DNA of 15,377 bases. Origin: Cyanobacteria bacterium P01_A01_bin.114 (GTDB lineage: Bacteria; Cyanobacteriota; Cyanobacteriia; Phormidesmidales; Phormidesmidaceae). The translations under genes and the position numbers were made by a program. This document shows positions 264 to 15,377 of the stretch, in pieces. Within the stretch, counting starts at the first letter, position 1, and each line of letters opens with the position of its first letter. Location: assembly GCA_039815385.1 (NCBI GenBank), contig JBCBZL010000088.1, positions 1-15,377 of the forward strand, written 5' to 3'. Under the pieces are notes generated by a model. The model was given only the letters and a program-made list of their open reading frames with translations, was not told where the DNA came from and did no database searches.

Positions 264-1322
264 TTACTCAGAAAACCCCCTCGGTAAAACCTCTTCTGGA
301 AAGACAAACTTTTTCGCAGGCTGATCAAGCTCTGATACCCAGGCGCGTACCCCTTCATTGAGCAAAACATTTTTAGTGTAAAAAGTTTCGAACTCGGGAT
401 CTTGTGCCGCTCGGATTTCTTGACTCACAAAGTCATACGCTCGTAAGTTAAAAGCCAAACCCACCATGCCGATAGCGCTCATCCACAAGCCTGTTACCGG
501 CACAAACAGCATAAAGAAGTGGAGCCAACGCTTGTTAGAAAACGCAATCCCAAAGATTTGTGACCAAAAGCGATTAGCCGTCACCATCGAGTAGGTTTCT
601 TCTGCCTGAGTCGCGGAGAACCCACTAAAGGTGTTTTTACCTTCAGAATCTTTGAAAAGGGTATTTTGCACCGTTGCGCCATGAATCGCGCAGAGCAAGG
701 CCGCCCCCAGCACCCCGGTAACCCCCATCATATGAAAGGGATTGAGAGTGTAATTGTGAAACCCCTGGAAAAATAGCAGAAATCGGAAGATGGCAGCAAC
801 CCCAAAACTCGGTGCAAAAAACCAGCTTGACTGACCCAGCGGATAGATCAAAAATGTCGCGACAAAAACTGCAATGGGGGCTGAAAATGCGATCGCATTA
901 TAAGGCCGAATCCCCACCAAGCGAGCAATCTCAATCTGCCGCAGCATAAAACCCATCAGGCCTAGCACACCGTGGAAGGCGGTAAAATTCCACAGGCCGC
1001 CAATTTGGCACCAGCGGACAAAGTCCCCGTTGGCCTCTGGCCCCCACAAAAACAACAGTGAATGCCCCATGCTCTCGGCGGGGGTAGAGACGGCAGTTGT
1101 GAGAAAATTGCAGCCTTCTAGGTACGAGGTGACCAAGCCGTGGGTATACCAGGAGGTGACAAAGCTAGTGCCGGTAAACCAGGCCCCGATGGCTAAATAA
1201 GCACAGGGAAATAGCAACAGCCCTGACCACCCGATAAATACAAAGCGATCTCGTTTTAACCAGTCGTCAAGCTCGCCTATCCAGCTTCTAGCTGGCTTCA
1301 GCGCTCCCATTGAAATCGTCAT
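264..1322 (-). CDS. psbD3: Photosystem II D2 protein, divergent far-red (FaRLiP) paralog
   Basis: The 352-aa ORF is collinear with D2 from MTI... to ...[10 protein letters not shown]2 hallmarks are present: [27 protein letters not shown] (TyrD context), NPFHMMGV and CAIHGATV (His ligands), [11 protein letters not shown]. Many substitutions relative to the standard D2 I recall (e.g. [16 protein letters not shown]-terminus PRGFSE) and its position in a paralog cluster indicate a second copy. AAGGAG Shine-Dalgarno lies upstream of the ATG. Confidence 0.92.
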
Positions 1323-1349: not shown

Positions 1350-1883
1350 TTAAGCAACTGACTCACTTTGACCGATACCGTCGTTCATGAAATAAGGAGG
1401 CCCCGGCAGGGCCAGCTCCTGAATAATTTCATCAAAATAAGGAACGATCGCTGCTGCATCGGCCTCTGTTAACTGTGCGATCGCTTCAGCTTTGAGGCAG
1501 CGCATATATTGCAAAATGTTTGTGAGGGGAATCCCGATATTGGTATACAGATCTTTCATCCCCACCAGGCCGATCTCTCTCAAGGGGCGATCGTCTCCAG
1601 CTAGCAAGCAGTAGCTAATCAAGCGAATATACCAACCGACATCTCGCTTGGCTGCCTCAGTTTTGCGACGATTGCCGCTGTTGCTAGGCGTCTTAGGACA
1701 GACCCGCCAAAATTGTCGAGTGCCTCGATCTACAATTGTTTGAGCCTGTTGCTCCAAAGTTTTGGCTAAGCGAATTCGCTCCGCTCCGGTTTTGCAAAAG
1801 GTGCGAATCATCCGCAGCTCACCGGGGGTAGGATAGCGCAGCTCTTCATCGGCGTTGAGAATAACTTGTTTAACGATACTCAT
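1350..1883 (-). CDS. apcD3: Allophycocyanin alpha-type subunit (ApcD-like, far-red paralog) lacking the canonical bilin-binding Cys and carrying a C-terminal extension
   Basis: I place the start at the ATG at 1883 (MSIVKQVILNADEELRY...), the normal phycobiliprotein alpha N-terminus. The track's 209-aa version starts at a TTG at 1979. It shares FWxxCxxTPSNSGN, GWYIRLISY and MRCLK with the other two alpha paralogs in this window. The aligned chromophore Cys (SC[LQ]RD in the paralogs) is Ala here (EAAKRD, codon at 1650-1652). The paralog number is assigned from gene order only. Confidence 0.8.
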   Translation of the reverse strand: MSIVKQVILNADEELRYPTPGELRMIRTFCKTGAERIRLAKTLEQQAQTIVDRGTRQFWRVCPKTPSNSGNRRKTEAAKRDVGWYIRLISYCLLAGDDRPLREIGLVGMKDLYTNIGIPLTNILQYMRCLKAEAIAQLTEADAAAIVPYFDEIIQELALPGPPYFMNDGIGQSESVA

Positions 1884-1890
1884 GGCTCTA

Positions 1891-1950
1891 CAGTTCGGAA
1901 TGTGGCAGCTCGGAATGAGATAATCCGGAAGGCAATAATTCGGAATACTG
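1891..1950. repeat. Four tandem 15-bp units, each containing TCGGAAT/CCGGAAG, directly upstream of the apcD3 start codon
   Basis: Units are cagTTCGGAATgtgg (1891-1905), cagCTCGGAATgaga (1906-1920), taaTCCGGAAGgcaa (1921-1935) and taaTTCGGAATactg (1936-1950). The core recurs at an exact 15-bp period (1895, 1910, 1925, 1940). The array ends 8 nt from the ATG at 1883 on the minus strand. Confidence 0.75.
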
Positions 1951-2100
1951 GGATCTGGGATAAACGCACACGCCTCCAAACCAACCGATATGGATGTGAT
2001 AGTCCAGGGGGTTGAAGGGCTGACAGAACAGCCTTAACCGTCTTAACGATTCTTTAGTGATAGGTTTCATGGGTCAGGTTCTCGATGTTAAAAGAACAAT

Positions 2101-4533
2101 TTAGGACTGGGCGCTGATCTCAGAGTCGACCGTATCCGCAACCGGCACTGTTTGTCCGTCAGGCGAGACCGCTTCTGTACGCCGCTCGCTATTGTCAGAA
2201 GAGATTGGTATGTTTTGCGTAGGCCGGTCTTGCTGGAGCAAATGCGATGGCTGAGCTTTAGACGGTTGAGTATCGTTAGGTGCTCGCTGAGTTTGACGAC
2301 TCGGGGCCATGACAGCCACGCTAGACCGATTCCCGATGCTAGAAACCGGATAGGGATGGTCGCGCATCCATTCACCTGCGGTGGGTGGGTTCTCTCTGGG
2401 CTTTGACCAGGCGACCGGGCCCTGGGGCGATCGCAACGCAAACCCACGCGGCGTCAGGTAGCGCTCGTAGGGGACGATATCTTCCCCAAAGACATCGCCA
2501 TATTCAGCACTGTCGACCAGGGTATCGACAAAGGCATAAAAGCCCTGGCGACCACAGATATCGTAGTAATGAGCCATTTCTCGTCGTCCGTAGGTGGGTC
2601 GCCCCAGCAACCGTCGATGGATATACTCAATTGCCTTGGTGACGTAGAGTTTTTCCCAGGTCATCTGACGAAACCAGCGAGTCTTGGCCAGCTGACGAAT
2701 AAACTCTCGCAGCGTGATCTGGCCTGCCTTGAGCTGAGTTTCGGCCACAGACTGTCGTTGAGTGTCAAAAACCTCGCGGCCAAACACCTGGCGATAGGCT
2801 GCTCGGATAACCGCTTCATGGGAATGGTGGGTGAGGTTCATGCTAGGCGGCGGTCCGGCTGTCGACCGGGCCAAATGGCCATTTCTAACCTGCCTGACCT
2901 GGCCAGACTCCCACCTCAGCACGTGACGGCCTAGGGAACCGGGGGCTCTGCCCAAATGGTTGCCCAGATGGCTGCCATTAACGCTGCCATTAGCGCCTCC
3001 GTTAGTGCTGCCGTGGCCGTTCCCCGCCCCGCTGCCAATTAAAATGCGGCGGCTGTCTTCGCTAAAATGAGCGGGTTGCGCTCTGGGGTCGCGAGTTTCT
3101 TGAGGGAAGATCGCCCCAAATTGAATTTCTAGCGGGTCGTTACCCACACCGTAGACATGTTGATTGGGTAAGGGCTGTTGATAGCTGGCAAAGGTGGTAA
3201 CAAACTGTGGCACCTTGCGAACAGGCGCACTGTACTTAAACAGATCTAGCTGCGGCCCCCAAATTCGGCATTCCTGGGCCTCTAGTCCCAACCCCCTGAG
3301 GAAAGGAACCGTCTCTTCACCAAAATAGTCGGCGTATTCCTCAGAGTCGATGAAGGTGTCTACCAGGGCTGGAAATCCCTGGGCCGAGATCACCTCAAAG
3401 CAGGTCTGAAACTCTTCCATGCAGCTTAACCCCCGTCCGAGAAAGTGGCGGCAGGCTAGCTCAATGCTGCGGCTGATCGTATAGGGCTCGTAATACAGCC
3501 GTCGATAGAGTCGCGATTTCCCCAGCTGACGAATAAACTCTTTCATCGACCAAAGACCGCTTTTAACCTGGGAGGTCAGCTCCGCCACAGCAGGCGCGTA
3601 GGGATGGGTAATATCGCGCTCGAAGACCTGTCGGTAAGCCGCCCGTATCACCTCATCTTTTTCAATGTCAGGCAGATCACGCTTCATCACCCATCGGGGT
3701 CGGGGGCTGCCGCTGTCACCATAGCTCTGGGGTAGCTGTAAGCCTGGATGATGCTTAGAAACCCCAACCCGCAGCCGAGGGGCCGGTTTTTCGACCCAAT
3801 AATCCGTAATCAGCACGTCAAAATACCGCTTGACTAGCGCCGCCGCTGCCGACTTAGCTGAAAAATAGGTGAGGGCTTTCCACTGCATTTCTTGCAGGGC
3901 GACAACGGTGGCCAGGGTGACATCCTCTGGAATCACGCCCCGCAGGCCTCGGGTATTGACACTGATGATGCTAGTGTCACCGGCCACAATGGCGTAGGTC
4001 ACATATCGCAAAAACCAGCTGAGATCCCGCAGCGAGCGCTTCATTCGAACGGGACCGTAGCGAGCGATGTCAATGGCCCGAAATCGACTGGGAACAGCAG
4101 GTTTACCCCCAGCCATCATGCCTTTAACCCACTCCATCAAACCGTTGGAGGCGTCTACAGAGCGGGGGCGATCTTGGACGACAGCCCGCTCTCGCTTTTG
4201 TCGGGTCGCTGCAGAGAGAAAGTCTTCTCCGACGTAGTAGCCTGAGCCCGGCAAACCCAGGGGGTCTTCGGGACGCTCTAGATAGGCCATCGCATTGCCC
4301 CCGACAAAGATGCGATTAGCCCCGGCAGCCACAATTTTGTCGGCTTGCTGAGTCAGGGTCTGGGCAATCTCTAGTCGCTTGAGTCCTGAGCTAAAGAAGG
4401 CTGAGAGTTCTTTGGCCTCGCTCTGGGTTAGATAGCGATCGCGCTGTTGCGCCTCAACAACTACCGCAGTCGGCACAGTGTGATACAGCTGCGGATGGAC
4501 AACTGGGCTGCCCCCGTTAATCTGATCGGTCAT
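2101..4533 (-). CDS. apcE2: Short phycobilisome core-membrane linker (ApcE paralog) with two REP/linker domains and a cysteine-free phycobiliprotein domain
   Basis: 810 aa. The N-terminal phycobiliprotein-like domain has a PB-loop (..PQLYHTVP..DRYL..RLEIAQTLTQQADKIVAAGANRIF..RYGPVRMKRSLRDLSWFLRYVTYAIVAGD..VALQEM). Only two linker (REP) repeats are present: EVIRAAYRQVFERD...FGEETVPFLRGLG (aa ~294-416) and EAVIRAAYRQVFGRE...FGEDIVPYERYLTPRG (aa ~573-697). Housekeeping ApcE has 3-4 REPs. Confidence 0.92.
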   Translation of the reverse strand: MTDQINGGSPVVHPQLYHTVPTAVVVEAQQRDRYLTQSEAKELSAFFSSGLKRLEIAQTLTQQADKIVAAGANRIFVGGNAMAYLERPEDPLGLPGSGYYVGEDFLSAATRQKRERAVVQDRPRSVDASNGLMEWVKGMMAGGKPAVPSRFRAIDIARYGPVRMKRSLRDLSWFLRYVTYAIVAGDTSIISVNTRGLRGVIPEDVTLATVVALQEMQWKALTYFSAKSAAAALVKRYFDVLITDYWVEKPAPRLRVGVSKHHPGLQLPQSYGDSGSPRPRWVMKRDLPDIEKDEVIRAAYRQVFERDITHPYAPAVAELTSQVKSGLWSMKEFIRQLGKSRLYRRLYYEPYTISRSIELACRHFLGRGLSCMEEFQTCFEVISAQGFPALVDTFIDSEEYADYFGEETVPFLRGLGLEAQECRIWGPQLDLFKYSAPVRKVPQFVTTFASYQQPLPNQHVYGVGNDPLEIQFGAIFPQETRDPRAQPAHFSEDSRRILIGSGAGNGHGSTNGGANGSVNGSHLGNHLGRAPGSLGRHVLRWESGQVRQVRNGHLARSTAGPPPSMNLTHHSHEAVIRAAYRQVFGREVFDTQRQSVAETQLKAGQITLREFIRQLAKTRWFRQMTWEKLYVTKAIEYIHRRLLGRPTYGRREMAHYYDICGRQGFYAFVDTLVDSAEYGDVFGEDIVPYERYLTPRGFALRSPQGPVAWSKPRENPPTAGEWMRDHPYPVSSIGNRSSVAVMAPSRQTQRAPNDTQPSKAQPSHLLQQDRPTQNIPISSDNSERRTEAVSPDGQTVPVADTVDSEISAQS

Positions 4534-4565
4534 GGTGTTTCCAAATCTCCAAATTCAACACTGCA

Positions 4566-5045
4566 CTAGGGCATTAGCCCTTGAATCAGATAGTCAAAGT
4601 AGGGGGCTACCTCCGCCGCGTCCTCTAGACTGAGGAAGTCTAAGGTGACTTCCTTGAGACAGCGCATACACTCCACTAAGTTTCTGAGGGGAATCTCCAA
4701 GGAGAGATACATTTCTTTGGCTCCTCTGATGCCGCTAGCCTGAAGCGGATCAATATCACCGACCACCACTGCATAAGAAATCAGGCGGATAAACCAACCC
4801 TGATCGCGCAGGCAGGAGGCCCGAAAGGTTGGGTTCCCGCTATTGCTGGGGGTGACTGCACAGCGCTGCCAAAAACGCTGGCTACCTTTTTCAACAATTG
4901 ACTGGACATTGTTAGTCAGAATAGAAGCAATTCGAAGCCGCTGCTGCCCATCTTGAAAGAAATGGCTAATGGTATCCAGTTCTCCTCGACTGAGATAGCG
5001 GGCCTCTCGATCGGCATTAGAGATTGCCTGGGTAATGATGCTCAT
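4566..5045 (-). CDS. apcD2: Allophycocyanin alpha-type subunit (ApcD-like, far-red paralog)
   Basis: 159 aa, MSIITQAISNADREARYLSRGELD... It retains the chromophore Cys (RASCLRDQGWFIRLISY) and shares FWQRCAVTPSNSGN and ECMRCLK with the other alpha paralogs here. The paralog number is tentative, from the order apcD5-apcB2-apcD2-apcE2-apcD3. Confidence 0.8.
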   Translation of the reverse strand: MSIITQAISNADREARYLSRGELDTISHFFQDGQQRLRIASILTNNVQSIVEKGSQRFWQRCAVTPSNSGNPTFRASCLRDQGWFIRLISYAVVVGDIDPLQASGIRGAKEMYLSLEIPLRNLVECMRCLKEVTLDFLSLEDAAEVAPYFDYLIQGLMP

Positions 5046-5083
5046 GATGAATGGGTTACCTTAACTAATATTCGATTTTGATA

Positions 5084-5210
5084 GGTGAGGGCGCTGCGCT
5101 GGTGAGGGCGCTGCGCTGGTGAGGGCGCTGCGCTGGTGAGGGCGCTGCGCTGGTGAAGACGCTGCGCTGGTGAGGGCGCTACGCTGGTGAGGACGCTGCG
5201 CTGGTGAACA
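5084..5210. repeat. Tandem array of a 17-bp unit GGTGAGGGCGCTGCGCT (about 7.5 copies)
   Basis: Four exact copies lie at 5084-5151. Variant copies follow: GGTGAAGACGCTGCGCT (5152-5168), GGTGAGGGCGCTACGCT (5169-5185), GGTGAGGACGCTGCGCT (5186-5202), then a partial GGTGAACA. The array sits in the apcB2-apcD2 intercistronic spacer. The unit length is not a multiple of 3 and no ORF spans it. Confidence 0.9.
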
Positions 5211-5220
5211 GTGAAGACTT

Positions 5221-5290
5221 CATCACCTACTCACCTACTCACCTACTCACTCACTCACCCACTCACCCACTCACCACTCACCCCCTCGCC
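5221..5290. repeat. Degenerate octamer array (CACCTACT x3, then CACTCACT, CACCCACT x2, CACCACT, CACCCCCT)
   Basis: The sequence reads catCACCTACTCACCTACTCACCTACTCACTCACTCACCCACTCACCCACTCACCACTCACCCCCTCGCC. Its CTCACC cores are the reverse complement of the GGTGAG cores of the adjacent 17-bp array. The array ends 7 nt before the apcB2 stop. Confidence 0.85.
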
Positions 5291-5296
5291 TAACGA

Positions 5297-5782
5297 CTAG
5301 CTGAGCCCCGAGCAGATATGGTCAAAGCAAACTCCCATTTCTCGACCGGCTTCTGCCCCTAGCATCTCGTTGACCACTTCCTTCATCGCCTGCACAGAGC
5401 GTACTGTAGCCCCCACTGGTACCCCCAGAGAGTTGTAAGTTTCTTTTAAGCCGTTGAGCACGCGCTCATCTAAAATGGACGGATCGCCCGCCAGCATGGC
5501 GTAGGTCGCATAGCGCAAGAAATACTCGACGTCACGAACACAGGCCGCATAGCGGCGACAGGTATACATATTGCCGCCGGGGCCAGTAATGTCGGTATAG
5601 AGGAGCGCTTTGGCGACTGTTTTGGTAACAATTGTGGAGGTGTTAGCGCTGATGGACATCGCTGCCCGCGCTCGCAAATCGCCACTGCGAAAATAGGATT
5701 GCAGATTTTCTAATGAAGCGTCGTCTAAATACTTACCTTGCACGTCAGAAGAATTGATCAAGGTGGTGATGGCGTCTTGCAT
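5297..5782 (-). CDS. apcB2: Allophycocyanin beta subunit, far-red paralog
   Basis: 161 aa, [20 protein letters not shown]... with the beta-type chromophore site [23 protein letters not shown] and [20 protein letters not shown] Shine-Dalgarno upstream. It lies directly downstream of an alpha-type gene, as in apcA-apcB operons. Confidence 0.9.
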
Positions 5783-5847
5783 GTTTTTCTCCTTAAGGGT
5801 TTGAAAATGATTGAATGATCTGTTGGCTATTAAAATTTGCGTCTTGA

Positions 5848-6324
5848 CTACAGCAGAGAATGGATAATGAGATCAAAATAGGGAGCCACCTCTTGGGCAT
5901 CTTCTTCGCTCAAGACGGTCATGGCTTCTTCCTTGAGACAGCGCATGCACTCTGCAATATTCCTAATCGGGATTTCTAGATTGTTGTACATTTCTTTGAT
6001 GCCCACCGTGCCAATTTCTTCTAGGGGGCGTTCGCTGCCTGCCAAGATAGAGTAGGCAATCAAGCGAACATACCAGCCTTGATCGCGCTGACAGGAGGCT
6101 GTCTTACGCTCATTGCCGCTGTTGCTTGGGGTATTTGGGCAGCGCTCCCAGAACTTTTGACTGCCGTTTTGGACAATCCGCTGTTCATTTTCGGCCAGGG
6201 CCCTGGCAATGCGAATGCGCTGTTCTCCCGTTTTGACAAAGTCTTGAAAGATTCGAAGTTCCTTGGGCGCAGGGTAGCGAGCTTCACTATCTGCACTGAG
6301 AATGAGTTCTGTAACCAGGCTCAT
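5848..6324 (-). CDS. apcD5: Allophycocyanin alpha-type subunit (far-red paralog, first gene of the apc block)
   Basis: 158 aa, [23 protein letters not shown]... It retains the chromophore Cys ([17 protein letters not shown]) and has [14 protein letters not shown] and ECMRCLK. Its position immediately upstream of apcB2 suggests the gene originally called apcA2 and later apcD5. That symbol is tentative. Confidence 0.8.
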
Positions 6325-6654: not shown

Positions 6655-6767
6655 CTGTGAGCATGCTAGCTACCAGTATGTTATCTGTTTGCAGGTCCCT
6701 AAATGCCCGTCAAGCCTCGGGGAGACTCTTCTTACTAAGGTTTGCAAGAAGAATAAGCAAAGAAAAT

Positions 6768-6871
6768 GGAGAACTTATGAAAATATGAAAACTGCTTAAT
6801 AAAGGTTAATAATTAGCGGTGAACAGATTTCGTCTTCAGATTTCGTCTTCATAAGTTCTCCAGTTTTTTTT
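6768..6871 (+). promoter_or_regulatory. 13-bp perfect inverted repeat enclosing a 13-bp x2 direct repeat and followed by a T8 tract, ~105-205 bp upstream of psbO
   Basis: GGAGAACTTATGA (6768-6780) is the exact reverse complement of TCATAAGTTCTCC (6849-6861). This is followed by AG and TTTTTTTT (6864-6871). Inside the loop are CAGATTTCGTCTT x2 (6824-6836, 6837-6849) and TATGAAAA x2 (6776-6791). The function is unknown; it could be an attenuator, an operator or a small MITE. Confidence 0.4.
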
Positions 6872-6974
6872 GGTTGAATTTGTATCGTGGGATAGCGCCT
6901 TGTAGTCGCTTTGTCAGCGTACGAACGCACAGGGGCTGCTATGCCAATAGAAGAGTCTATAAGAGAGTAAAGAG

Positions 6975-7805
6975 ATGAGATATCGCACTTTAATGATGAG
7001 TTTATTAGTCTTGTGTTTTGGAGTATTCATGGCTTGCAGTCGTGCGCCGAGCGCGCAAGCTGAAGGATTAAGCTACGACGACATTAAAGGGAGCGGACTG
7101 GCTAATAACTGCCCTGAGCTTTCGCAGAGCAGTCTAGATGCCATTGTTATAGATGCTGATCAGTCTTATCAACTGAATGGGCTGTGCTTACAGCCCGAAG
7201 CGTTTTTGGTGAGGCGAGCGCCCCTCATAAAGCGCCAGGAGAGCAAATTTGTGCGCACCAAGCCCCTCACTCGGGAGAGTTTTAGCCTCGATCAGGTTAG
7301 CGGTGCTCTACAGAGGGGGGCCGATGGAAATTTGGCGTTTGTTGAGCAAGGAGGATTTGACTTTCAGCCTGTGACGGTTCAACTGCCTGATGGCGAGCGA
7401 GTGCCCCTGCTGTTTACAGTTAAAGGATTAGTGGCTAAAAAACAAGATGATTCAAACAACTTCGGCCCCTCTACTCGCCTGGTGGGCACCTTTCAGGTAC
7501 CGCCCTACCGGACTTCTAGCTTTATTGATCCAAAGGGTCGGGGCTTAGCCGTGGGCTACGATGCGGCGGTGGGGCTGCCGAGTCAGGCAGACCGTGAAGC
7601 ATTTGCTCGTCAGAACATTAAGACGTTTGATATTGGGCAGGGACGGATTGCGCTGCAAATTAATCGGGTCAACCGCACAACCGGAGAAATTGCCGGTCTT
7701 TTTGAAAGCGAGCAGCCGTCTGATACCGACTTCGGTTCTAAAGAAGCGATGGATGTCAAAATTCGAGGGCAGTTCTACGGTCGCATTGAGCCGGCAGTCG
7801 TTTAG
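6975..7805 (+). CDS. psbO: PSII manganese-stabilising protein (PsbO) paralog with signal peptide
   Basis: 276 aa. An N-terminal hydrophobic signal (MRYRTLMMSLLVLCFGVFMAC..SAQA) precedes PsbO hallmarks: LSYDDIKGSGLANNCPE, LCLQPEAFLV, GGFDFQPVTVQLPDGERVPLLFTVKGLV, FIDPKGRGLAVGYDAAVGLP, TGEIAGLFESEQPSDTDFG and VKIRGQFYGRIEP. The conserved Cys pair is present. Confidence 0.92.
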   Translation: MRYRTLMMSLLVLCFGVFMACSRAPSAQAEGLSYDDIKGSGLANNCPELSQSSLDAIVIDADQSYQLNGLCLQPEAFLVRRAPLIKRQESKFVRTKPLTRESFSLDQVSGALQRGADGNLAFVEQGGFDFQPVTVQLPDGERVPLLFTVKGLVAKKQDDSNNFGPSTRLVGTFQVPPYRTSSFIDPKGRGLAVGYDAAVGLPSQADREAFARQNIKTFDIGQGRIALQINRVNRTTGEIAGLFESEQPSDTDFGSKEAMDVKIRGQFYGRIEPAVV

Positions 7806-8111: not shown

Positions 8112-8636
8112 CTAGCGGGCAGGTTTGCCGCCGGCCCACTTGTCGCCAATGATTTTAGGCTGGACCAAAATATAGCCTGCGATCGCAACTAAATCATCCT
8201 CAGTCAAATCTCGCATCTTGGGAAAGAGATCGGCTCTTGACATGGACGGGTGCAGTTCGGCAATCGAGGAAACCCCATCGTAGGTGGTGGGGTTCTCAAA
8301 ATAATCAACCAGGCTTTCAATATTGTCACGGGGTGGGGTTGCTAACGCCAACGCTTGAGGCCCTAGATCGACATCAGGATTAGGTTTGCTCACCCCATCT
8401 AAGTGACACTGGGCACAGCTGCCATTAAACTTGCGCTGACCCACAACGAGTTGTTCCAGGCTCAGCGTGAGGGTTTCCCCTGACGCGTTGAGCGGAACCG
8501 TGCGGGTAGCCTCGTCAATTTCAACGGCGAGCGCCCTATTAGCCCCGATCACCGCCCATAGAACAGATGAAAGGGATATCACCAGCACAGCGTATATAGC
8601 AAACTTGATTAAGTTTTTTTTGAAATAGGCAATCAT
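8112..8636 (-). CDS. psbV: Cytochrome c550 (PsbV) paralog with signal peptide
   Basis: 174 aa. A signal peptide ends ..ANRALA. PsbV hallmarks follow: TVPLNASGETLTLS, heme motif CAQCH, LALATPPRDNIESLVDYFENPTTYDG, ELHPS (distal His), DLFPKMRDLTEDDLVAIAGYILVQPKIIGDKWAGGK. AGGAG Shine-Dalgarno upstream. Confidence 0.9.
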   Translation of the reverse strand: MIAYFKKNLIKFAIYAVLVISLSSVLWAVIGANRALAVEIDEATRTVPLNASGETLTLSLEQLVVGQRKFNGSCAQCHLDGVSKPNPDVDLGPQALALATPPRDNIESLVDYFENPTTYDGVSSIAELHPSMSRADLFPKMRDLTEDDLVAIAGYILVQPKIIGDKWAGGKPAR

Positions 8637-8737
8637 TTCGACATATCTCCTGAAAACGGTTTTGCCAAGTAAATAGCCATAACTAAGGGATCTGTGGGAT
8701 TTGCAACAAATAACATCTCGCTTCTAAATCGGGGGTT

Positions 8738-8840: not shown

Positions 8841-8972
8841 ACTCTGTCAGCTTTGACGAGCAGTTTATTTTTACGCCGATCCCTAAACTAAAGAAGATGA
8901 CATCTTCTTAAAAGATCTCCTTGAGGCAAACAAGTAGGTAAGCAAAATTATTTTCAGTACCACTTTCTGGTT

Positions 8973-9051
8973 GAGATCCCCCCAGCCCCCCTTAGCTCTA
9001 GCGAAGCGGCGGGCAAAGCCCGCGGGGGTGGCGCAGCCGGGGGGATCCCTC
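8973..9051. repeat. Inverted-repeat element related to the one at 136-259, in opposite orientation
   Basis: GATCCCCCC (8975-8983) pairs with GGGGGGATC (9039-9047), with an inner hairpin GCGGGC-aaa-GCCCGC (9009-9023). The reverse complement of 8973-8993 (AAGGGGGGCTGGGGGGATCTC) differs at one base from 166-186 (AAGGGGGGTTGGGGGGATCTC). Confidence 0.7.
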
Positions 9052-9347
9052 GGAAACGTGAAACAGTGAGTAATTTACTGACGCGGTACTTATTCTCCTC
9101 AAAGCGGAGTCAAGTTAGAGCTATATATCTAATAGCTTGAAAGTATCATACTCTTCTGGCCCTCAATGAATCAGATACCCTTTTTTGAAATAAGAAAGAA
9201 CAAAATTAGCATTCCCTTGTAACTTTTTCTAACACTGATCTTGGCCTTCATTAGTTCTCCATATTTCTCTTTTATTCTTGGCTTCACTGGCTGACAGACA
9301 GGTCGTACAGATCTAGTTGCGATCGTCAGAATAATTCGACTACAAAA

Positions 9348-9379
9348 CTATTCTCAGCTACTGTCTATTCTCAGCTACT
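9348..9379 (+). repeat. Exact 15-bp direct repeat CTATTCTCAGCTACT x2 (17-bp period) ~145-175 bp upstream of chlF
   Basis: Copies lie at 9348-9362 and 9365-9379, separated by GT, in an AT-rich region with no ORF. This is a candidate transcription-factor site, but only the repeat itself is observed. Confidence 0.8.
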
Positions 9380-9522
9380 AACATCTGTTGAGACTCAGCA
9401 GTCTCTGATCTATTTTCTGACCCGTATCTGGCTACCGCAGACAGCCTTTTATTGTGCTAAGCAGTTATTTTTGTGAACAACTTCAGTGACTTCAAAAAAT
9501 CAGTTAATACAGGAGCTTTAAG

Positions 9523-10764
9523 ATGACACAGTTTGGTAGAACGATCGCTTTTAATCGTCCTGACCAACTCCCTGGCCAACTCAAAGCGCCGGATAGCGTG
9601 TCTGACATCGAAAGCCTGTCCAGTGGTGTGAGCCCTCCAGATAGAGCCGCGATTCCAGAGCCCATTTCTCTTTGGGAACGCTTTTGTCGTTGGGTGACGA
9701 GTACTGAAAATCGGATCTACATTGGCTGGTTTGGGATGATTATGTTTCCCACCCTGTCTACGGCTGCCATTGTCTTTGTGCTGGCGTTTATAGCTGCGCC
9801 CGCAGTTGATATGGAGGGGACTGGGAGAGTCCTTTCGGGGGCTCTATTTGATGGAAATAACCTGATTACAGCCGCTGTTGTGCCGACTTCAGCTGCGATT
9901 GGGCTGCATTTTTACCCCATTTGGGAAGCTGCCTCTTTAGAGGAATGGCTCGTCAACGGGGGGCCGTATCAGCTAATTGTGCTGCATTTCATTATTGGCA
10001 TCATCAGCTATCAAGACCGAGAGTGGGAATTAAGCTATCGCTTAGGCATGCGCCCCTGGATTTCGCTGGCGTTTACAGCACCGGTTGCAGCGGCTGTCTC
10101 AGTGTTATTAATTTATCCGATTGGTCAGGGCAGCTTTTCGTCGGGCATGCCCTTGGGTATTTCGGGTACCTTTACCTTCATGCTGCAGTTTCAAGCCGAT
10201 CACAACATTCTGGCCAACCCGTTTCATCAGCTAGGGGTCATCGGTGTCTTTGGCGGTGCTTTGCTGTGTGCAGTCCACGGCTCATTAGTGACATCAGCCC
10301 TGATTCGACAAACTGACCACGGGTCTGATCGCGAATCTACGTTACCAGCGCGAGCTGAGTTGAAGAGAGCCCAAACAAAAATCCAGAGAAAAGCCCAGAA
10401 AACTTATAGCTTTGAGCATATCCAGGGCTACCAGCAGAAGCTGTTCTGGCGTGGGGTGAGTTTCAAAAACTCACGGTCTGTACACTTTGTTTTAGCGGCT
10501 CTCCCTGTGGCGGGTATCTGGTCGGCAGCATTGGGGATCGACATGGCTGCTTTTGGCTTTGATCAATTTTCTGGGTCTTCCAATGGATATTTCCAGAAAA
10601 CGGTCGTGCCCACCTGGTCTGATATTGTTGTTCGGGCCGATCTGGGGCTTCAGGCGGTTGAAGACACCCGTGAACCGATGTTCCCAATTTTTCTGGGAGA
10701 GGAGTCTGAATTTGATGTCAATACAGATGTCAATACGAATATTGCCGATCTAGACATGACTTGA
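9523..10764 (+). CDS. chlF: Super-rogue D1 paralog: chlorophyll f synthase (ChlF / PsbA4)
   Basis: 413 aa with a D1 fold ([70 protein letters not shown]). It has a ~37-aa N-terminal extension, a 12-aa basic insertion in the D-E loop and a C-terminal extension. The Mn4CaO5 ligand positions are replaced: D170>S (codon 10141-10143), E189>D, H332>E, H337>P, D342>F. The D1 Y-M-G-R triplet region reads Y-Q-D-R (QD codons 10012-10017). AGGAG Shine-Dalgarno upstream. Confidence 0.88.
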
Positions 10765-10814: not shown

Positions 10815-13166
10815 ATGACCACAAGTCCTCCGGAGCAGAGGCAGCAGGTTAGGGTTGTCGTCGATGATAATCCGGTTCCTACATCCTTTGAGAAGTGGGC
10901 AAAGCCGGGGCATTTTGAGCGAACCCTGGCACGGGGCCCCAAAACCACCACCTGGATTTGGGATCTGCATGCCGATGCCCATGATTTTGATAGTCATACC
11001 AGTGATTTGGAAGAGATTTCTCGAAAAATCTTCTCTGCCCATTTTGGTCATTTGGCCATCGTATTTATTTGGCTGAGTGGAATGTATTTCCACGGGGCTC
11101 GCTTTTCTAACTTTTCTGCTTGGATGAGCGACCCGACTCATATCAAGCCGAGTGCTCAAGTCGTTTGGCCAATTGTTGGGCAAGACATCCTCAACGCCGA
11201 TGTGGGGGGCGGCTTCCGGGGCATCCAAATTACCTCCGGGCTGTTTCAAATGTGGCGTGGACAAGGGTTTACCCATGAGTTCCAGCTTTACTGGACGGCC
11301 ATCGGTGCGCTAGTCATGGCGGCGCTGATGCTGTTTGCCGGCTGGTTTCACTACCACGTTCGGGCTCCCAAGCTAGAGTGGTTTCTCAACTGGGAGTCGA
11401 TGATGAACCATCACCTGGCAGGTCTGCTGGGGATGGGCAGTCTGGGCTGGGCTGGGCACCTGATCCATGTGGCACTGCCTACCAATAAGCTGCTGGATGC
11501 TGGGGTCGCCTTGGAAAACATTCCCCTACCCCATGATTTCATTCTGGATAAGGGGCTGATGGCAGAGCTCTATCCTAGCTTTGCCCAGGGTGTGAAGCCG
11601 TTTTTTACGCTGAACTGGTCGGCCTATACCGATTTTCTCACCTTTAGGGGTGGGCTCAATCCGGTGACGGGGGGCCTGTGGATGACGGATATTGCGCATC
11701 ATCATGTTGCGATCGCAGTCCTATTCATCATTGCAGGGCATTTCTACCGCACCAACTGGGGCATTGGCCACACCTTTAATGAGCTGCTGGACGATGCCAG
11801 AACCCCCAAAATGCTGCCCATCTTTAACTTTATTGGGCCGGTCGGACACCGGGGTCTTGAGAAAATCTTTGAGACGTCGTGGCACGCCAATCTCTCTATC
11901 CACCTGGTTCAGTTTGGTACGGCTAGTCTGCTGGTGGCTCATCACATGTACGCGATGCCGCCCTACCCCTACTTAGCCACGGACTATGCCACCGTGACCT
12001 CGCTGTTTACCCATCACGTCTGGATTGCAGGCTTCTGCATTGTGGGCGGGGCTGCCCATGCCGCCATCTTTATGGTGAGAGACTACAACCCCGCTGATCA
12101 CGTTAACAATGTGCTCGATCGGGTGTTACGCCATCGAGACGCGATTATCTCTCACCTGGCCTGGGTCTGTCAGTTCTTAGGCTTCCACAGCTTTGCCATG
12201 TACTGTCACAACGACACCATGCGAGCCTTTGGCCGTCCCCAGGATATGTTTTCTGACACCGGGATTCAGCTCCAGCCCATTTTTGCCCAGTGGATTCAGC
12301 ACATTCACACCATGGCGGTGGGCAGCCTGCAAGCGGCAGAGCCCCTGGGCAGTGCCTTTGGCGGTCTGCGTAACATCGAGCTGTCGGGCCTGGGCACCAC
12401 GGTTCCTGGAATGGCTGAGCCGGTCAGCTACGCCTTTGGCGGCGGCGTCCTGGCGGTGGGTGGCAAAGTCGCCATGATGCCCATTCCCCTGGGCACTGCC
12501 GATTTCTTAATCCATCACATTCACGCTTTCACCATTCATGTGACGGTGCTGGTACTGCTCAAAGGGGTGCTGTTTGCCCGCAGTTCTCGCTTGATTCCTG
12601 ATAAGGGCGAGCTGGGCTTCCGATTCCCCTGCGATGGGCCGGGCCGGGGGGGCACCTGCCAAGTGTCTGCCTGGGATCACGTGTTCTTAGGGTTGTTCTG
12701 GATGTATAACTCGCTTTCGATTGTGATATTTCACTTCTTTTGGAAAATGCAATCGGACGTCTGGGGCACGGTAAGCGCCGATGGCACCATTACTCATATT
12801 ACGGGGGGCAACTTTGCCCTGTCATCGATTACCAACAACGGCTGGCTGCGCGATTTTCTCTGGGCGCAGGCTTCCCAGGTGATCAACTCCTACGGCTCGG
12901 CACTGTCTGCCTACGGAATCATGTTCCTGGCTGGGCACTTTGTCTTTGGCTTTAGCCTGATGTTTTTATTCAGCGGTCGCGGCTACTGGCAAGAGCTGAT
13001 CGAGTCGATTGTTTGGGCTCACAACAAGCTGAAAATTACCACCGCGATTCAGCCTCGAGCCTTGAGTATCACCCAAGGACGAGCCGTGGGCGTTGCCCAC
13101 TACCTGTTAGGAGGTATTGTCACCACCTGGGCCTTCTTTTTGGCCCGTATGTCCGCAGTCGGATAG
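10815..13166 (+). CDS. psaA2: Photosystem I P700 apoprotein A1, far-red paralog
   Basis: 783 aa, collinear with PsaA: [31 protein letters not shown], the FX motif [19 protein letters not shown], and the C-terminal [36 protein letters not shown]. It has many substitutions and a ~24-aa insertion relative to the standard PsaA I recall. It lies 50 nt downstream of chlF, with AAGGAG Shine-Dalgarno upstream. Confidence 0.93.
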
Positions 13167-13211: not shown

Positions 13212-15377
13212 ATGGCGACAAAATTTCCAAAATTTAGTCAGGATTTACAGCGAGATCCGACCACCCGTCGGCTCTTCTATTCGATCGCCACGGCCCATGA
13301 CTTCGAAAGCCACGATGGGATGACGGAGGAAAACCTTTACCAGAGGATTTTTGCCTCCCACTTTGGTCATCTCGCCATTATCTTCCTGTGGATATCGGGC
13401 ATTTTGTTTCATGTGGCCTGGCAGGGCAATTTTGAACAGTGGATTCAAGATCCGCTGAACCGATCACCAATTGCCCACGCGATTTGGGATGCCCAGTTTG
13501 GACCGGCTGCGATTGAAGCCTATACCCAGGCAGGTGCCAGGAATCCGGTGGATATTTGCTATTCCGGGGTCTATCACTGGTGGTACACCATCGGCATGCG
13601 CACCAACAACGATCTGTTTGTGGGTGCTATCTTTTTGCTGCTGCTAGCCTCGGTAATGCTCTATGCCGGGTGGCTACACCTACAGCCCCGCTTTCGCCCC
13701 AACTTAAGCTGGTTTAAGAATGCCGAGTCTCGCCTAAACCACCATCTAGCTGGTTTGTTTGGGGTCAGCTCCCTGGCCTGGGCTGGGCACTTAATCCACG
13801 TGGCCATTCCTGAATCACGGGGCCAGCATGTGGGCTGGGATAACTTTCTAGCTGTGCCGCCCCATCCCGCCGGGCTGACGCCGTTTTTCACCGGCAACTG
13901 GGGAGCCTATGCTCAAAATCCTGATACGGCAGAGCATATTTTCAACAGCTCTCAGGGCGCAGGCACCGCAATTCTCACCTTTCTAGGAGGCTTCCACCCC
14001 CAGACAGAATCCCTGTGGCTGACGGATATGGCCCATCACCACCTGGCAATCGCGGTGATCTTTATCATCGCGGGTCACATGTACCGCACTAACTTTGGCA
14101 TCGGTCACAATATTAAAGAAATGACCGAAGCCCTCCAGGGGCCAGGGTGGAAAGGGTTCTTTATTGCGCCTCGCACCGGGCGCGGTCACAAGGGTATCTA
14201 TGATGCCTACAACAACTCTCTGCACTTTCAGCTGGCCTGGCATCTGGCCTGTTTAGGCGTCGTGTGCTCCCTGGTGGCGCAGCACATGTATTCAATGCCG
14301 CCCTATGCCTTTATGGCTCGCGACTACACCACCATGTCGGCCCTCTATACCCATCACCAGTACATCGCTGGGTTCCTGATGGTGGGGGCATTTGCCCACG
14401 GGGCGATTTTCCTGGTGCGCGACTACGACCCAGAAGCCAACAAAGACAACGTGCTGGCTCGGGTGCTAGACCACAAAGAGGCGATTATTGCCCACCTTAG
14501 CTGGGTGTGCTTGTTCCTAGGTTTCCACACGCTGGGGCTCTACGTTCACAACGACTGCGAGGTGGCCTTTGGCGCGCCCGAAAAACAGATTCTGGTTGAG
14601 CCCGTCTTTGCCCAGTGGATTCAAGCCTTTCACGGCAAAGCCCTCTATGGCATCAACACCCTGCTGTCTAACCCGGACAGCATTGCCACCACGGCCTGGC
14701 CCAATCACGGCAACGTCTGGCTGTCGGGCTGGCTAGAAGGGATCAACAGCGGTGCCAACTCGCTGTTTCTGACCATTGGACCAGGCGACTTTTTGGTACA
14801 CCATGCGATCGCACTGGGCCTCCACGTCACCACTCTAATTTTGGTGAAAGGAGCCTTAGACGCTCGCGGCTCGAAGCTGATGCCAGACAAAAAAGACTTT
14901 GGCTATAGCTTCCCCTGTGACGGCCCCGGTCGCGGCGGCACCTGCGACATCTCCGCCTGGGATTCTTTTTACCTGGCCATGTTCTGGATGCTCAACACGT
15001 TAGGCTGGGTTACCTTCTACTGGCACTGGAAACACCTGGCCATTTGGGGTGGCAACGTTGCCCAGTTTAACGAAAGCTCAACCTACTTAATGGGCTGGTT
15101 CCGCGACTATCTGTGGCTCAATTCATCCCAGCTGATCAATGGCTACAACCCTTACGGCACCAACAACCTGGCCGTTTGGGCCTGGATGTTCCTGTTAGGC
15201 CATCTCGTCTGGGCGGTGAGCTTTATGTTCTTAATCACCTGGCGAGGCTACTGGCAAGAACTGATTGAGACCCTGCTGTGGGCCCATGAAAATACCCCCC
15301 TCTCCTTTGGCTATCCCAAAGATAAGCCCGTTGCCCTGTCTATCGTGCAGGCTCGACTGGTCGGGCTAACCCATTTC
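13212..15377 (+). CDS. psaB2: Photosystem I P700 apoprotein A2, far-red paralog (3' end truncated by the window; missing from the ORF track because no stop is reached)
   Basis: My own translation from ATG 13212 gives [60 protein letters not shown]... The frame stays open for 722 codons to 15377. It contains [28 protein letters not shown] (from 14880) and ends ...[46 protein letters not shown], about 20 residues short of a normal PsaB C-terminus. Confidence 0.93.

What the first reader, a model, noticed from the sequence alone, without database searches (positions are those of the whole stretch)
9523..10764. D1 paralog that cannot bind the Mn4CaO5 cluster and carries the Y-Q-D motif: predicted chlorophyll f synthase
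The reaction-centre scaffold residues are kept: the TyrZ context IYPIGQG, the His190-equivalent ADH, and the His198/His215/His272 equivalents. The water-oxidation ligand positions are substituted: GSFSDG>GSFSSG, and the C-terminal MHERNAHNFPLDLA region becomes [14 protein letters not shown]. The D1 segment CYMGRQWELSY reads [11 protein letters not shown]. As I recall, the QD pair at D1 positions 127-128 was reported as the determinant that converts D1 into a light-dependent Chl a to Chl f oxidoreductase. Three further features are visible in the sequence: the N-terminal extension, the basic D-E-loop insertion ([16 protein letters not shown]) and the acidic C-terminal tail ([21 protein letters not shown]). 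I do not know of a function for any of them.
Basis: partly seen in the sequence, partly recalled or inferred. Interest (0 to 1): 0.85.

Follow-up and report, generated by a model that had tools for sequence, protein, structure and literature searches.

The report
Chlorophyll f synthase gene (chlF)
This gene encodes a typical member of the known chlorophyll f synthase family, a photosystem II D1 look-alike that makes the far-red pigment chlorophyll f instead of splitting water, and it sits in an ordinary far-red-light gene cluster of a Leptolyngbya-like cyanobacterium.

Summary
ORF 9523-10764 (+) encodes a 413-aa D1 paralog. It keeps every charge-separation residue (TyrZ, H190, H198, H215, H272). 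It has lost the Mn4CaO5 ligand set (D170S, H332E, H337P, D342F, A344G plus an uncleavable-looking tail; E189D and E333D are conservative). It carries Y126-Q127-D128 and all six other published ChlF signature residues. It nests in a QD-bearing clade (100/100 unrooted bootstrap) with proteins named chlorophyll f synthase from Synechococcus PCC 7335 and Halomicronema hongdechloris.

The context is a far-red (FaRLiP) cluster of the Nodosilineales type: FRL-type psbD, five apc genes, psbO and psbV paralogs, then chlF-psaA-psaB. The published bipartite "chlF motif" lies about 250 nt upstream.

The three "unexplained" features are traits of the ChlF clade. They are weakly constrained (dN/dS 0.37-0.45 against 0.02 in the core), predicted disordered, and here each enlarged by an in-frame 12-bp tandem duplication.

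This is a new, generically annotated member of a well-known family. Enzyme activity and the form of the complex remain untested.

The parts
9523..10764 (+). chlF coding sequence (413 codons plus TGA): D1 paralog, predicted light-dependent chlorophyll f synthase
   Evidence: ORF. Pfam Photo_RC E 3e-80. NCBIfam psbA 460.5 bits, below the 596 cut-off. 100% identical NCBI protein from MAG 'Cyanobacteria bacterium P01_A01_bin.114'. Sits in the ChlF clade.
10009..10017 (+). Codons for Y163-Q164-D165 (D1 Y126-Q127-D128): the QD motif, the proposed active-site determinant
   Evidence: Mapping. Invariant in 109/109 database ChlF-like proteins and 54/54 genome loci. The literature says QD is critical for activity.
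10141..10143 (+). Codon S207 (D1 D170 to S): loss of the high-affinity Mn site ligand
   Evidence: Among 109 ChlFs this position is S 73, A 28, E 5, V 2, D 1.
10657..10698 (+). [14 protein letters not shown] (residues 379-392), replacing D1 MHERNAHNFPLDLA: H332E, E333D, H337P, D342F, A344G
9523..9657 (+). N-terminal region before the D1-like core (residues 1-45, about 37 residues longer than D1). It has a conserved [16 protein letters not shown] head and a variable linker, and contains a 12-bp tandem duplication at 9559-9582 (PDQL/PGQL).
   Evidence: dN/dS 0.45. Low pLDDT, no secondary structure predicted.
10306..10404 (+). Variable part of the D-E loop (residues 262-294, D1 225-245): 33 residues with net charge +5, against 21 residues and -4 in D1. 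The basic insertion [16 protein letters not shown] is at 10354-10401 and the 12-bp x 2.7 tandem array at 10368-10399.
   Evidence: dN/dS 0.39.
10699..10761 (+). Acidic C-terminal tail (residues 393-413, net charge -7), with a perfect 12-bp duplication at 10714-10736 (DVNT/DVNT)
   Evidence: dN/dS 0.37.
9511..9515 (+). Shine-Dalgarno-like AGGAG, 7 nt upstream of the ATG
   Evidence: Conserved k-mers spanning the SD and the start codon in 10-17 related loci.
9218..9274 (+). Bipartite 'chlF motif': TGTAACTTTTTCTAA, a spacer, then CTTCATTAGTTCTCCATATTTCTCTTTTA. Probable far-red-responsive promoter or regulator site.
   Evidence: Conserved in 40 chlF upstream regions. nhmmer E 9e-12. Matches the ~61-bp motif described in bioRxiv 10.1101/2024.05.15.594131.
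6841..6869 (+). Short copy of the motif's 3' box, facing psbO
   Evidence: nhmmer E 7.5e-5. One arm of inverted repeat I4.
6754..6781 (-). Short copy of the motif's 3' box, facing the apc operon
   Evidence: nhmmer E 2e-4. One arm of inverted repeat I4.
10815..13166 (+). Far-red-type psaA, 50 nt downstream of chlF, probably co-transcribed
   Evidence: TIGR01335 1438 bits. Best PDB matches are far-red PSI PsaA chains (6kmx 1704 bits; 9eys, 7s3d and 6pnj 1531-1587), against 1385 or less for standard PsaA. No terminator-like site in the 50-nt gap. The order chlF-psaA-psaB is seen in 39 loci.
13212..15377 (+). psaB (far-red cluster copy), cut off by the contig end
   Evidence: Open frame from ATG 13212 to the window end. 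88-95% identical to the psaB next to chlF in related loci.
8112..8636 (-). psbV paralog (cytochrome c-550), divergent from chlF
   Evidence: TIGR03045 213.8 bits, above the 177.75 cut-off. Same position in 18 related loci with the full arrangement.
6975..7805 (+). psbO paralog (manganese-stabilising protein)
   Evidence: Pfam MSP E 2.6e-98. Syntenic in related loci. An optional far-red psbO2 is described in the literature.
1350..6324 (-). Allophycocyanin block: alpha-like (1350-1883/1979), apcE-like core-membrane linker with two linker repeats (2101-4533), alpha-like (4566-5045), apcB (5297-5782), alpha-like (5848-6324)
   Evidence: Syntenic in related loci.
264..1322 (-). Far-red-type psbD (D2)
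   Evidence: TIGR01152 702.6 bits. The best PDB match is the D2 of 7sa3/8eqm at 735.8 bits, against 681 or less for standard D2.

Best explanation
The gene is chlF. Its product folds like the D1 subunit of photosystem II and keeps the cofactor ligands needed for light-driven charge separation: P680 (H198), TyrZ/H190, pheophytin (Y126, E130) and the non-haem iron (H215, H272). It has lost the ligands for the water-splitting Mn4CaO5 cluster. Inferred from characterised orthologs: on illumination the strongly oxidising donor side is used to oxidise the C2 methyl group of chlorophyll a (or chlorophyllide a) to a formyl group, giving chlorophyll f. This occurs at or near a chlorophyll site shaped by Q127/D128. 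The enzyme would work either within a D2/CP47/CP43-containing 'super-rogue' PSII or as a ChlF homodimer; that question is unresolved in the literature. The gene is probably switched on by far-red light through the conserved bipartite motif at 9218-9274 and co-transcribed with the far-red psaA-psaB. This would supply Chl f to the far-red photosystems and accompany the far-red allophycocyanins encoded alongside. The N-terminal extension, the enlarged basic D-E loop and the acidic C-terminal tail are clade-wide, weakly constrained and probably disordered appendages. In this gene each has grown by slippage-type 12-bp duplications. They are more likely to modulate accumulation or assembly than catalysis.
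For: Shown here:
- Intact ORF with a conserved SD and start.
- Photo_RC fold family, but below the psbA equivalog cut-off.
- All redox residues kept and Mn ligands replaced.
- All 8 published ChlF signature residues present.
- Y126/Q127/D128 invariant in 109/109 ChlF-like database proteins and 54/54 genome loci. Every QD sequence lacks D170 and H332, and every non-QD D1 keeps the full ligand set.
- QD versus non-QD split 100/100 bootstrap. The window nests with the H. hongdechloris and Synechococcus 7335 proteins, which UniRef names 'Light-dependent chlorophyll f synthase'.
- Strong purifying selection on the core: dN/dS 0.023 at dS 0.59.
- Neighbours are far-red paralogs, in an order repeated in 18 related loci.
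- The chlF upstream motif is present as described in the literature.

From the literature:
- ChlF is required and sufficient for Chl f synthesis, and it lacks Mn ligands but keeps charge-separation residues (PMC11946780).
- QD is critical for activity (PMC10535343).
- The N-terminal extension is dispensable and its removal raises Chl f.
Against: No enzymatic or pigment data exist for this protein or this uncultured organism. The contig ends at both sides, so rfpABC, psbA3, psbB2, psbC2 and the minor psa genes are not seen. No rogue/sentinel D1 sequence could be included in the tree, so that exclusion rests on residue discriminators from the literature. Rooted with D2, the ChlF clade has only 60/100 bootstrap support, which reflects uncertain root placement. 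The structure model was poor (pLDDT 60.7), so nothing structural is shown about the insertions. E189D, E333D and H332E leave carboxylates near the former Mn site, so some metal binding cannot be excluded.
Confidence: 0.9

Rival explanations
1. It is a rogue/sentinel D1 (rD1, Group 2 of Cardona et al. 2015). This is an inactive D1 inserted into PSII to shut off oxygen evolution, for example during nitrogen fixation, and has no chlorophyll f synthase role.
For: Like rD1, it lacks a complete Mn ligand set and has an altered acceptor side. No rD1 sequences could be put into the tree.
Against: Published Group 2 features are not met. Group 2 keeps H332 (34/36), has A/S/G at 333 and strictly conserves N335, whereas this protein has E332, D333 and R335, the Group 1 pattern. 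It carries QD and the whole ChlF signature. It lies in a FaRLiP cluster directly upstream of far-red psaA-psaB, with the chlF-specific upstream motif.
Confidence: 0.02
2. It is a ChlF-clade protein that has lost or changed activity in this lineage. It could be a decaying copy, or one whose enlarged D-E loop and tail have redirected it to another role.
For: The D-E loop is among the 6 longest of 109 and differs by 12 residues from the nearest relative. The source is an uncultured MAG with no phenotype. The contig is only a partial cluster.
Against: The frame is intact and core dN/dS is 0.023. All invariant ChlF residues are present. The syntenic context and upstream motif are intact. D-E loops of 26-41 residues occur in the Synechococcus 7335 clade, which contains the protein UniRef names a chlorophyll f synthase. 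Ho et al. 2016 tested that gene genetically (my own recollection, not checked here).
Confidence: 0.05
3. It is the far-red water-oxidising D1 (FRL-D1/PsbA3), or another functional D1 isoform.
For: It lies in a far-red cluster and is annotated 'photosystem II q(b) protein' in NCBI.
Against: The FRL-D1-like sequences from the same kinds of genomes keep D170, E189, H332, E333, H337, D342 and A344 and form a separate 100/100 clade. This protein keeps none of these seven residues unchanged. It scores 460 bits, below the 596-bit psbA equivalog cut-off.
Confidence: 0.01

Closest known systems
ChlF / PsbA4 / super-rogue D1 (Group 1 D1). Examples are Synechococcus sp. PCC 7335 (P0065) and Halomicronema hongdechloris (P0042), plus the experimentally studied enzymes of Chlorogloeopsis fritschii PCC 9212, Fischerella thermalis PCC 7521 and Chroococcidiopsis thermalis PCC 7203.
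   Same: Same D1 scaffold and the same retained redox residues. QD motif and the full L117/S144/L145/F147/Q252/S285 signature. Loss of Mn ligands, H252Q and F255Q at the QB site, an N-terminal extension and an uncleavable-looking C-terminus. Position in a FaRLiP cluster upstream of psaA-psaB, and the same upstream motif.
   Different: 67% (PCC 7335) and 75% (H. hongdechloris) identity, so a distinct ortholog. It has a longer, more basic D-E loop than most (33 residues, +5) and one of the most acidic tails (-7), both partly made by 12-bp duplications. No experimental data exist.
Far-red D1 (FRL-D1, PsbA3) of FaRLiP clusters, as in the solved FRL-PSII structures 7sa3/8eqm
   Same: A D1 paralog encoded in the same regulon and expressed in far-red light.
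   Different: FRL-D1 keeps all Mn4CaO5 ligands and MG/LG at 127-128, has a 21-residue acidic D-E loop and a 16-residue cleavable tail. It is about 59% identical to this protein.
Rogue / sentinel D1 (Group 2 D1, e.g. Cyanothece ATCC 51142 PsbA4)
   Same: An atypical D1 without a complete Mn ligand set, expected to form a PSII that does not evolve oxygen.
   Different: Group 2 keeps H332 and N335 and has A/S/G at 333. It has no QD motif and is not part of FaRLiP clusters.
FaRLiP gene cluster of lineage VI (Nodosilineales), as described in bioRxiv 10.1101/2024.05.15.594131 and for H. hongdechloris (PMC6416890)
   Same: chlF is followed by psa genes, apc genes lie with psbD, and optional far-red psbO and psbV copies are present. 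The chlF motif and shorter derived motifs sit upstream of operons.
   Different: Only 15.4 kb is visible. rfpABC, psbA3, psbB2/C2/H2, psaL/I/F/J and psbF are off the contig, so completeness cannot be judged.

Membership tests
ChlF (chlorophyll f synthase, Group 1 / super-rogue D1) | D1/Photo_RC homolog that is clearly divergent from water-oxidising D1 | tested here: met
   Pfam PF00124 E 3e-80. TIGR01151 psbA 460.5 bits, below the 596.05 cut-off. About 60% identity to PDB D1 chains. Published range for Group 1: 55-63%.
ChlF (chlorophyll f synthase, Group 1 / super-rogue D1) | Residues for charge separation retained (Y161, H190, H198, H215, H272) | tested here: met
   All present. Invariant in 109/109 relatives.
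ChlF (chlorophyll f synthase, Group 1 / super-rogue D1) | Mn4CaO5 ligands lost | tested here: met
   D170S, H332E, H337P, D342F and A344G, with a 21-residue tail. E189D and E333D are conservative. Relatives show the same pattern.
ChlF (chlorophyll f synthase, Group 1 / super-rogue D1) | QD motif at D1 positions 127-128 | tested here: met
   Q164-D165. Definition from PMC10535343 citing Trinugroho 2020.
ChlF (chlorophyll f synthase, Group 1 / super-rogue D1) | Additional conserved ChlF residues L117, S144, L145, F147, Q252, S285 | tested here: met
   All six present.
ChlF (chlorophyll f synthase, Group 1 / super-rogue D1) | Phylogenetic placement with known ChlF, apart from other D1 groups | tested here: met
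   NJ tree, 317 columns. QD versus non-QD split 100/100 unrooted, and 60/100 when rooted with D2. Caveat: no Group 2 or Group 0 sequences in the tree.
ChlF (chlorophyll f synthase, Group 1 / super-rogue D1) | Encoded in a FaRLiP cluster with far-red paralogs of PSI, PSII and allophycocyanin | tested here: met
   psbD and psaA match far-red structures best. Synteny with 18 related loci. rfpABC not visible because the contig ends.
ChlF (chlorophyll f synthase, Group 1 / super-rogue D1) | Conserved bipartite chlF motif upstream | tested here: met
   9218-9274, nhmmer E 9e-12 against a profile of 40 loci. Description.
ChlF (chlorophyll f synthase, Group 1 / super-rogue D1) | Light-dependent conversion of Chl a (or Chlide a) to Chl f | not testable with these tools
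   Needs heterologous expression and pigment analysis.
ChlF (chlorophyll f synthase, Group 1 / super-rogue D1) | Assembly into a super-rogue PSII (with D2, CP47, CP43) or a homodimer | not testable with these tools
   The literature is divided. The PDB has no ChlF structure: the best hits are ordinary D1 at about 435 bits.
Rogue / sentinel D1 (Group 2) | H332 retained, E333 replaced by A/S/G, N335 strictly conserved | tested here: not met
   The window has E332, D333 and R335. Criteria from PMC4408414.
Rogue / sentinel D1 (Group 2) | Clusters with Group 2 sequences in a D1 tree | not tested
   No Group 2 sequence could be retrieved. The representative search collapsed the D1 family at 50% identity.
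Water-oxidising D1 (standard G3/G4 and far-red D1) | Complete ligand set D170, E189, H332, E333, H337, D342, A344 | tested here: not met
   None of the seven is unchanged. All 20 non-QD D1 sequences compared keep all seven.
Water-oxidising D1 (standard G3/G4 and far-red D1) | Reaches the NCBIfam psbA equivalog threshold | tested here: not met
   460.5 bits, below 596.05.

The most novel reading that the evidence does not exclude
The charge-inverted D-E loop and the acidic tail may be functional modules of the enzyme and not neutral appendages. The D-E loop is always 21 residues with net charge -3 to -5 in water-oxidising D1. In ChlF it is net positive in 74% of 109 sequences and is repeatedly expanded. 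Together with the near-invariant H252Q and F255Q changes, it might disable normal QB protonation or bicarbonate binding, or block binding of assembly factors such as Psb28. That would keep a long-lived oxidising donor side, or stop the complex maturing into an oxygen-evolving PSII. The window's extra-long basic loop would be an extreme natural variant for testing this.
Probability: 0.15. Interest if true: 0.4.

Novelty: new member of a known kind. Interest (0 to 1): 0.15.

Why it matters
The result corrects a generic database label ("photosystem II q(b) protein") to chlorophyll f synthase. It marks this uncultured Leptolyngbya/Nodosilinea-like cyanobacterium as probably capable of far-red photosynthesis. 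It adds no new biology: the enzyme family, its QD motif, the cluster architecture, the optional psbO/psbV copies and the upstream motif are all published.

There are two modest additions. First, across 109 ChlF sequences the D-E loop has the opposite charge to that of all water-oxidising D1s compared. Second, the three variable appendages of this gene grow by in-frame 12-bp duplications and evolve under weak constraint. These points may help people who engineer ChlF for Chl f production decide what can be trimmed.

Tried and rejected
1. The exhaustive representative search was meant to supply diverse D1 groups for a tree. At 50% clustering the whole D1 family collapses, and the list was mostly fragments and chimeric eukaryotic misassemblies. 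Only P0121, a ChlF representative, was usable.
Exclusion of rD1 therefore rests on residue discriminators taken from PMC4408414 and not on a tree.
3. The AlphaFold2 model built on the 109-sequence ChlF alignment was poor (mean pLDDT 60.7, pTM 0.44). It only weakly suggests a helix at 279-287 in the D-E insertion and disordered termini. No fold search was run on it.
4. The look-up of encoding contigs found no record of the exact protein, so the sample's origin was not traced.
5. The primary paper on QD (Trinugroho et al. 2020) is not held. Its finding is cited second-hand from PMC10535343 and PMC11946780.
6. The generic sigma-70 and terminator scan around chlF gave no more promoter-like sites than shuffled sequence. 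The conserved motif was found by comparative k-mer analysis instead.
7. The intergenic gaps 6324-6975 and 8636-9523 were checked for small genes, and none was convincing.
8. psbC is not immediately downstream of psbD within the 263 nt available.
Full report
**Observation**

All the quoted peptides are present. Mapping onto standard D1 numbering, with the D1 chain of PDB 9lp8 as ruler, gives 60% identity over 336 aligned residues.

- Retained: TyrZ (Y161), H190, H198, H215, H272, H118, Y126 and S264.
- Changed around the Mn4CaO5 site: D170S, E189D, H332E, E333D, H337P, D342F and A344G. Position 344 is followed by 21 further residues instead of a cleavable extension. Second-sphere changes are D61E, E65R, N181T and N298D.
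- The D1 segment C-Y-M-G-R-Q reads S-Y-Q-D-R-E, so Q127/D128 are present.

The start codon is well supported. An AGGAG lies 7 nt upstream, and the string AGGAGCTTTAAGATGACACAG is conserved at the nucleotide level in 10-17 related loci. The encoded N-terminal peptide MTQ[FL]GRxIA recurs in relatives.

**What it is**

Pfam assigns the product to the photosynthetic reaction-centre family (E 3e-80). Against NCBI's psbA equivalog model it scores 460.5 bits, below the 596-bit cut-off, so it is a divergent D1.

An identical protein is already in NCBI, from the metagenome-assembled genome 'Cyanobacteria bacterium P01_A01_bin.114', on a contig of 15,378 bases. It is labelled only 'photosystem II q(b) protein'. 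Relatives at 67-78% identity carry the UniRef name 'Light-dependent chlorophyll f synthase'. These include the Synechococcus sp. PCC 7335 protein, whose gene was shown genetically to be needed for Chl f (Ho et al. 2016, from my own knowledge).

PMC10535343 lists eight residues characteristic of ChlF: L117, Q127, D128, S144, L145, F147, Q252 and S285. [quoted passage not shown] 2020. All eight are present here.

**Family comparison**

A scan of one genome per species returned 72 loci. I extracted the D1-family ORF from each and tabulated 21 diagnostic positions.

- All 54 QD-bearing sequences keep the five redox residues and lack D170 and H332.
- All 20 non-QD D1s keep the full ligand set. This includes six far-red-D1-like sequences, some on the same contigs as chlF.

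In a neighbour-joining tree on 317 core columns the QD clade is monophyletic. Bootstrap support is 60/100 when rooted with the window's own D2, where the long outgroup branch makes the root unstable. It is 100/100 for the unrooted QD versus non-QD split. The window's nearest relative is another MAG (L001, 91.5% core identity). Core identity is 80.6% to the H. hongdechloris ChlF and 58-61% to every non-QD D1. In a separate set of 109 database proteins, Y126, Q127, D128 and the redox residues are invariant, H252Q occurs in 106 and F255Q in 101.

I could not obtain rogue/sentinel D1 sequences. Cardona et al. 2015 report that Group 2 keeps H332 in 34 of 36 sequences, has A/S/G at 333 and strictly conserves N335. 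Group 1 (super-rogue, the far-red cluster form) has D/E at 333. The window protein has E332, D333 and R335, which is the Group 1 pattern.

**Context**

The window is a piece of a far-red light photoacclimation (FaRLiP) cluster.

- psbD (264-1322, -) matches the D2 of the far-red PSII structures 7sa3/8eqm best, at 735.8 bits against 681 or less for standard D2.
- psaA (10815-13166, +) matches far-red PSI PsaA chains best. 6kmx scores 1704 bits, and 9eys, 7s3d and 6pnj score 1531-1587, against 1385 or less for standard PsaA. Which PDB entries are far-red forms is from my own knowledge and the titles.
- Between them lie three allophycocyanin alpha-like genes, an apcB and an 810-aa apcE-like linker with two linker repeats, followed by psbO and psbV paralogs.
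- psaB starts at 13212 and runs off the contig.

The order psbD-apc block-psbO-psbV-chlF-psaA-psaB recurs in 18 related Leptolyngbya/Nodosilinea/Halomicronema-type loci. chlF lies directly upstream of psaA-psaB in 39 loci.

This is the lineage VI (Nodosilineales) architecture described in bioRxiv 10.1101/2024.05.15.594131: chlF, then psa, then rfp, with optional far-red psbO, psbV and psbF, and chlF co-transcribed with the PSI genes. The extra psbO and psbV copies were reported as far-red-induced in H. hongdechloris (PMC6416890). The 50-nt chlF-psaA gap has no terminator-like site.

**Regulatory element**

Comparative k-mer analysis of the chlF upstream regions found a bipartite element at 9218-9274: TGTAACTTTTTCTAA, a spacer, then CTTCATTAGTTCTCCATATTTCTCTTTTA. 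The consensus over 40 loci from several lineages is cTGTAACTTTTtnTaAAg, a variable stretch of about 12 nt, then CTtCATtaGTTcTcCATTTTTctTttcTAt. A profile of it hits the window at E 9e-12.

The profile also finds two copies of the 3' half in the apc/psbO divergent intergenic region: 6841-6869 (+, E 7.5e-5) and 6754-6781 (-, E 2e-4). The same two copies were recovered independently as an inverted repeat (I4). This agrees with the published ~61-bp 'chlF motif' and its derived long and short motifs. That it binds RfpB is an inference; it has not been shown.

**The three 'unexplained' features**

These features are traits of the ChlF clade and are not peculiar to this gene.

| Feature | Water-oxidising D1 | ChlF clade | This gene |
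|---|---|---|---|
| Residues before W14 | 13 | median 42-48 | 50 |
| D-E loop (D1 225-245), length | always 21 | median 21, range 7-51 | 33 (among the 6 longest of 109) |
| D-E loop, net charge | -3 to -5 | positive in 74% of 109; only 4.6% at -3 or below | +5 |
| Segment after position 344 | 16 residues, near neutral | median 16-18 residues, acidic in 87% | 21 residues, -7 |

Against the nearest relative (dS 0.59), dN/dS is 0.023 and 0.11 for the two core parts. It is 0.45, 0.39 and 0.37 for the N-extension, D-E loop and tail. The appendages are therefore translated but weakly constrained.

Each of the three segments contains an in-frame 12-bp tandem duplication:
- 9559-9582 (PDQL/PGQL)
- 10368-10399 ([12 protein letters not shown])
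- 10714-10736 (DVNT/DVNT)

chlF holds three of the window's five period-12 rows, whereas psbD, psaA and psaB together have one low-score array. The D-E loop is 4 + 8 residues longer than in the nearest relative, and the 8-residue block coincides with the repeat array. Slippage in tolerant, probably disordered segments is the simplest explanation.

The literature fits this reading.
- D1 residues 225-241 of the DE loop and both termini are the fast-evolving, low-pLDDT parts across D1 groups.
- The DE loop engages Psb28 during assembly.
- The CtpA cleavage site has been lost in atypical D1s (PMC12096807).
- Removing 22 N-terminal residues of the Chroococcidiopsis ChlF raised Chl f from 0.1 to 1.4% of Chl a in Synechocystis. 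The extension is therefore dispensable for catalysis and seems to limit accumulation; the authors leave the reason open (PMC11946780).

My own AlphaFold2 model was too poor to add anything (pLDDT 60.7).

**Mechanism**

Shown: the sequence keeps what is needed for light-driven charge separation and lacks what is needed to bind the canonical Mn4CaO5 cluster.

Inferred from characterised orthologs: light-generated oxidising power on the donor side is used to oxidise the C2 methyl of Chl a or Chlide a to a formyl group, at a site shaped by Q127/D128. The enzyme would act within a super-rogue PSII containing D2, CP47 and CP43 (Trinugroho 2020; Qi 2025) or as a homodimer (Ho 2016; Shen 2019). This question is still open and nothing here bears on it. 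The near-invariant H252Q and F255Q changes and the charge-inverted D-E loop suggest a deliberately altered acceptor side, but this is speculation.

**Verdict**

The finding is a correct recognition of a known enzyme in a known cluster type. The gene is a new, under-annotated member of the ChlF family. Interest is low: a specialist would not be surprised, and no open question becomes newly testable beyond what the existing ChlF orthologs already allow. The residual novelty is the extra-long basic D-E loop as a natural variant, and the family-wide charge inversion of that loop.

Noticed in passing
window 9218-9274 (+); 6841-6869 (+); 6754-6781 (-): A conserved bipartite motif lies about 250 nt upstream of chlF. 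Two outward-facing copies of its 3' half sit in the apc/psbO divergent intergenic region and also form inverted repeat I4. It matches the published FaRLiP 'chlF motif' and its short derivatives. A very weak further match (E 7) lies at 8886-8909 (-), upstream of psbV.
   Followed up: yes
window 9559-9582, 10368-10399, 10714-10736: In-frame 12-bp (4-codon) tandem duplications occur in each of the three variable segments of chlF (N-extension, D-E loop, C-tail). This suggests the appendages lengthen by replication slippage. The photosystem core genes in the window (psbD, psaA, psaB) have only one low-score array (11442-11457, in psaA).
   Followed up: partly
ChlF family (alignment A1, 109 sequences; loci L001-L068): The variable half of the D-E loop is always 21 residues with net charge -3 to -5 in the water-oxidising D1s compared. 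In ChlF it is net positive in 74% of sequences and ranges from 7 to 51 residues. H252Q (106/109) and F255Q (101/109) accompany it. I found no paper that states the charge inversion explicitly.
   Followed up: partly
window 6975-7805 (+) and 8112-8636 (-): psbO and psbV paralogs sit inside the far-red cluster, between the apc block and chlF. The placement is conserved in 18 related loci but absent from the Synechococcus 7335/Phormidesmis-type loci. It is reported as optional, possibly ancestral, with function unknown.
   Followed up: partly
window 5084-5207 and 5223-5292: There is a 17-bp unit repeated 7.3 times (GGTGAGGGCGCTGCGCT) and an adjacent 8-bp unit repeated about 8 times (TCACCCAC). 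Both lie in the intergenic gap between an apc alpha-like gene and apcB.
   Followed up: no
window 8737-8831: Three adjacent heptamer arrays (TGGGTAG x4.3, TTGTTAC x3.6, TCACCAA x3.7) lie between psbV and chlF. They resemble cyanobacterial short tandemly repeated heptamers. The terminator scan mistakes them for long stems.
   Followed up: no
window 156-236 and 8971-8993: A G/C-rich palindromic element (AAGGGGGGTTGGGGGGATCTCAA and its complement) lies downstream of psbD. A 96% complementary copy lies in the psbV-chlF intergenic region. It may be a small dispersed repeat.
   Followed up: no
window 1350-1979 (-): The listed 209-aa ORF for the first allophycocyanin alpha-like gene probably starts at the internal ATG at 1883. 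The family match begins at residue 33 (MSIVKQV...).
   Followed up: no
P0002 (locus L001) and P0042 (H. hongdechloris): Some database entries for ChlF orthologs are annotated from downstream start codons and so lack the conserved MTQ... N-terminal extension. In L001 the longer ORF with the conserved start exists in the DNA.
   Followed up: partly
window 2101-4533 (-): The apcE-like core-membrane linker is only 810 aa with two linker repeats, as reported for far-red ApcE2 that builds a small bicylindrical core. It has low-complexity Gly/Asn/Ser stretches with 12-bp repeats at 2948-3012. Chromophore-binding residues were not examined.
   Followed up: no
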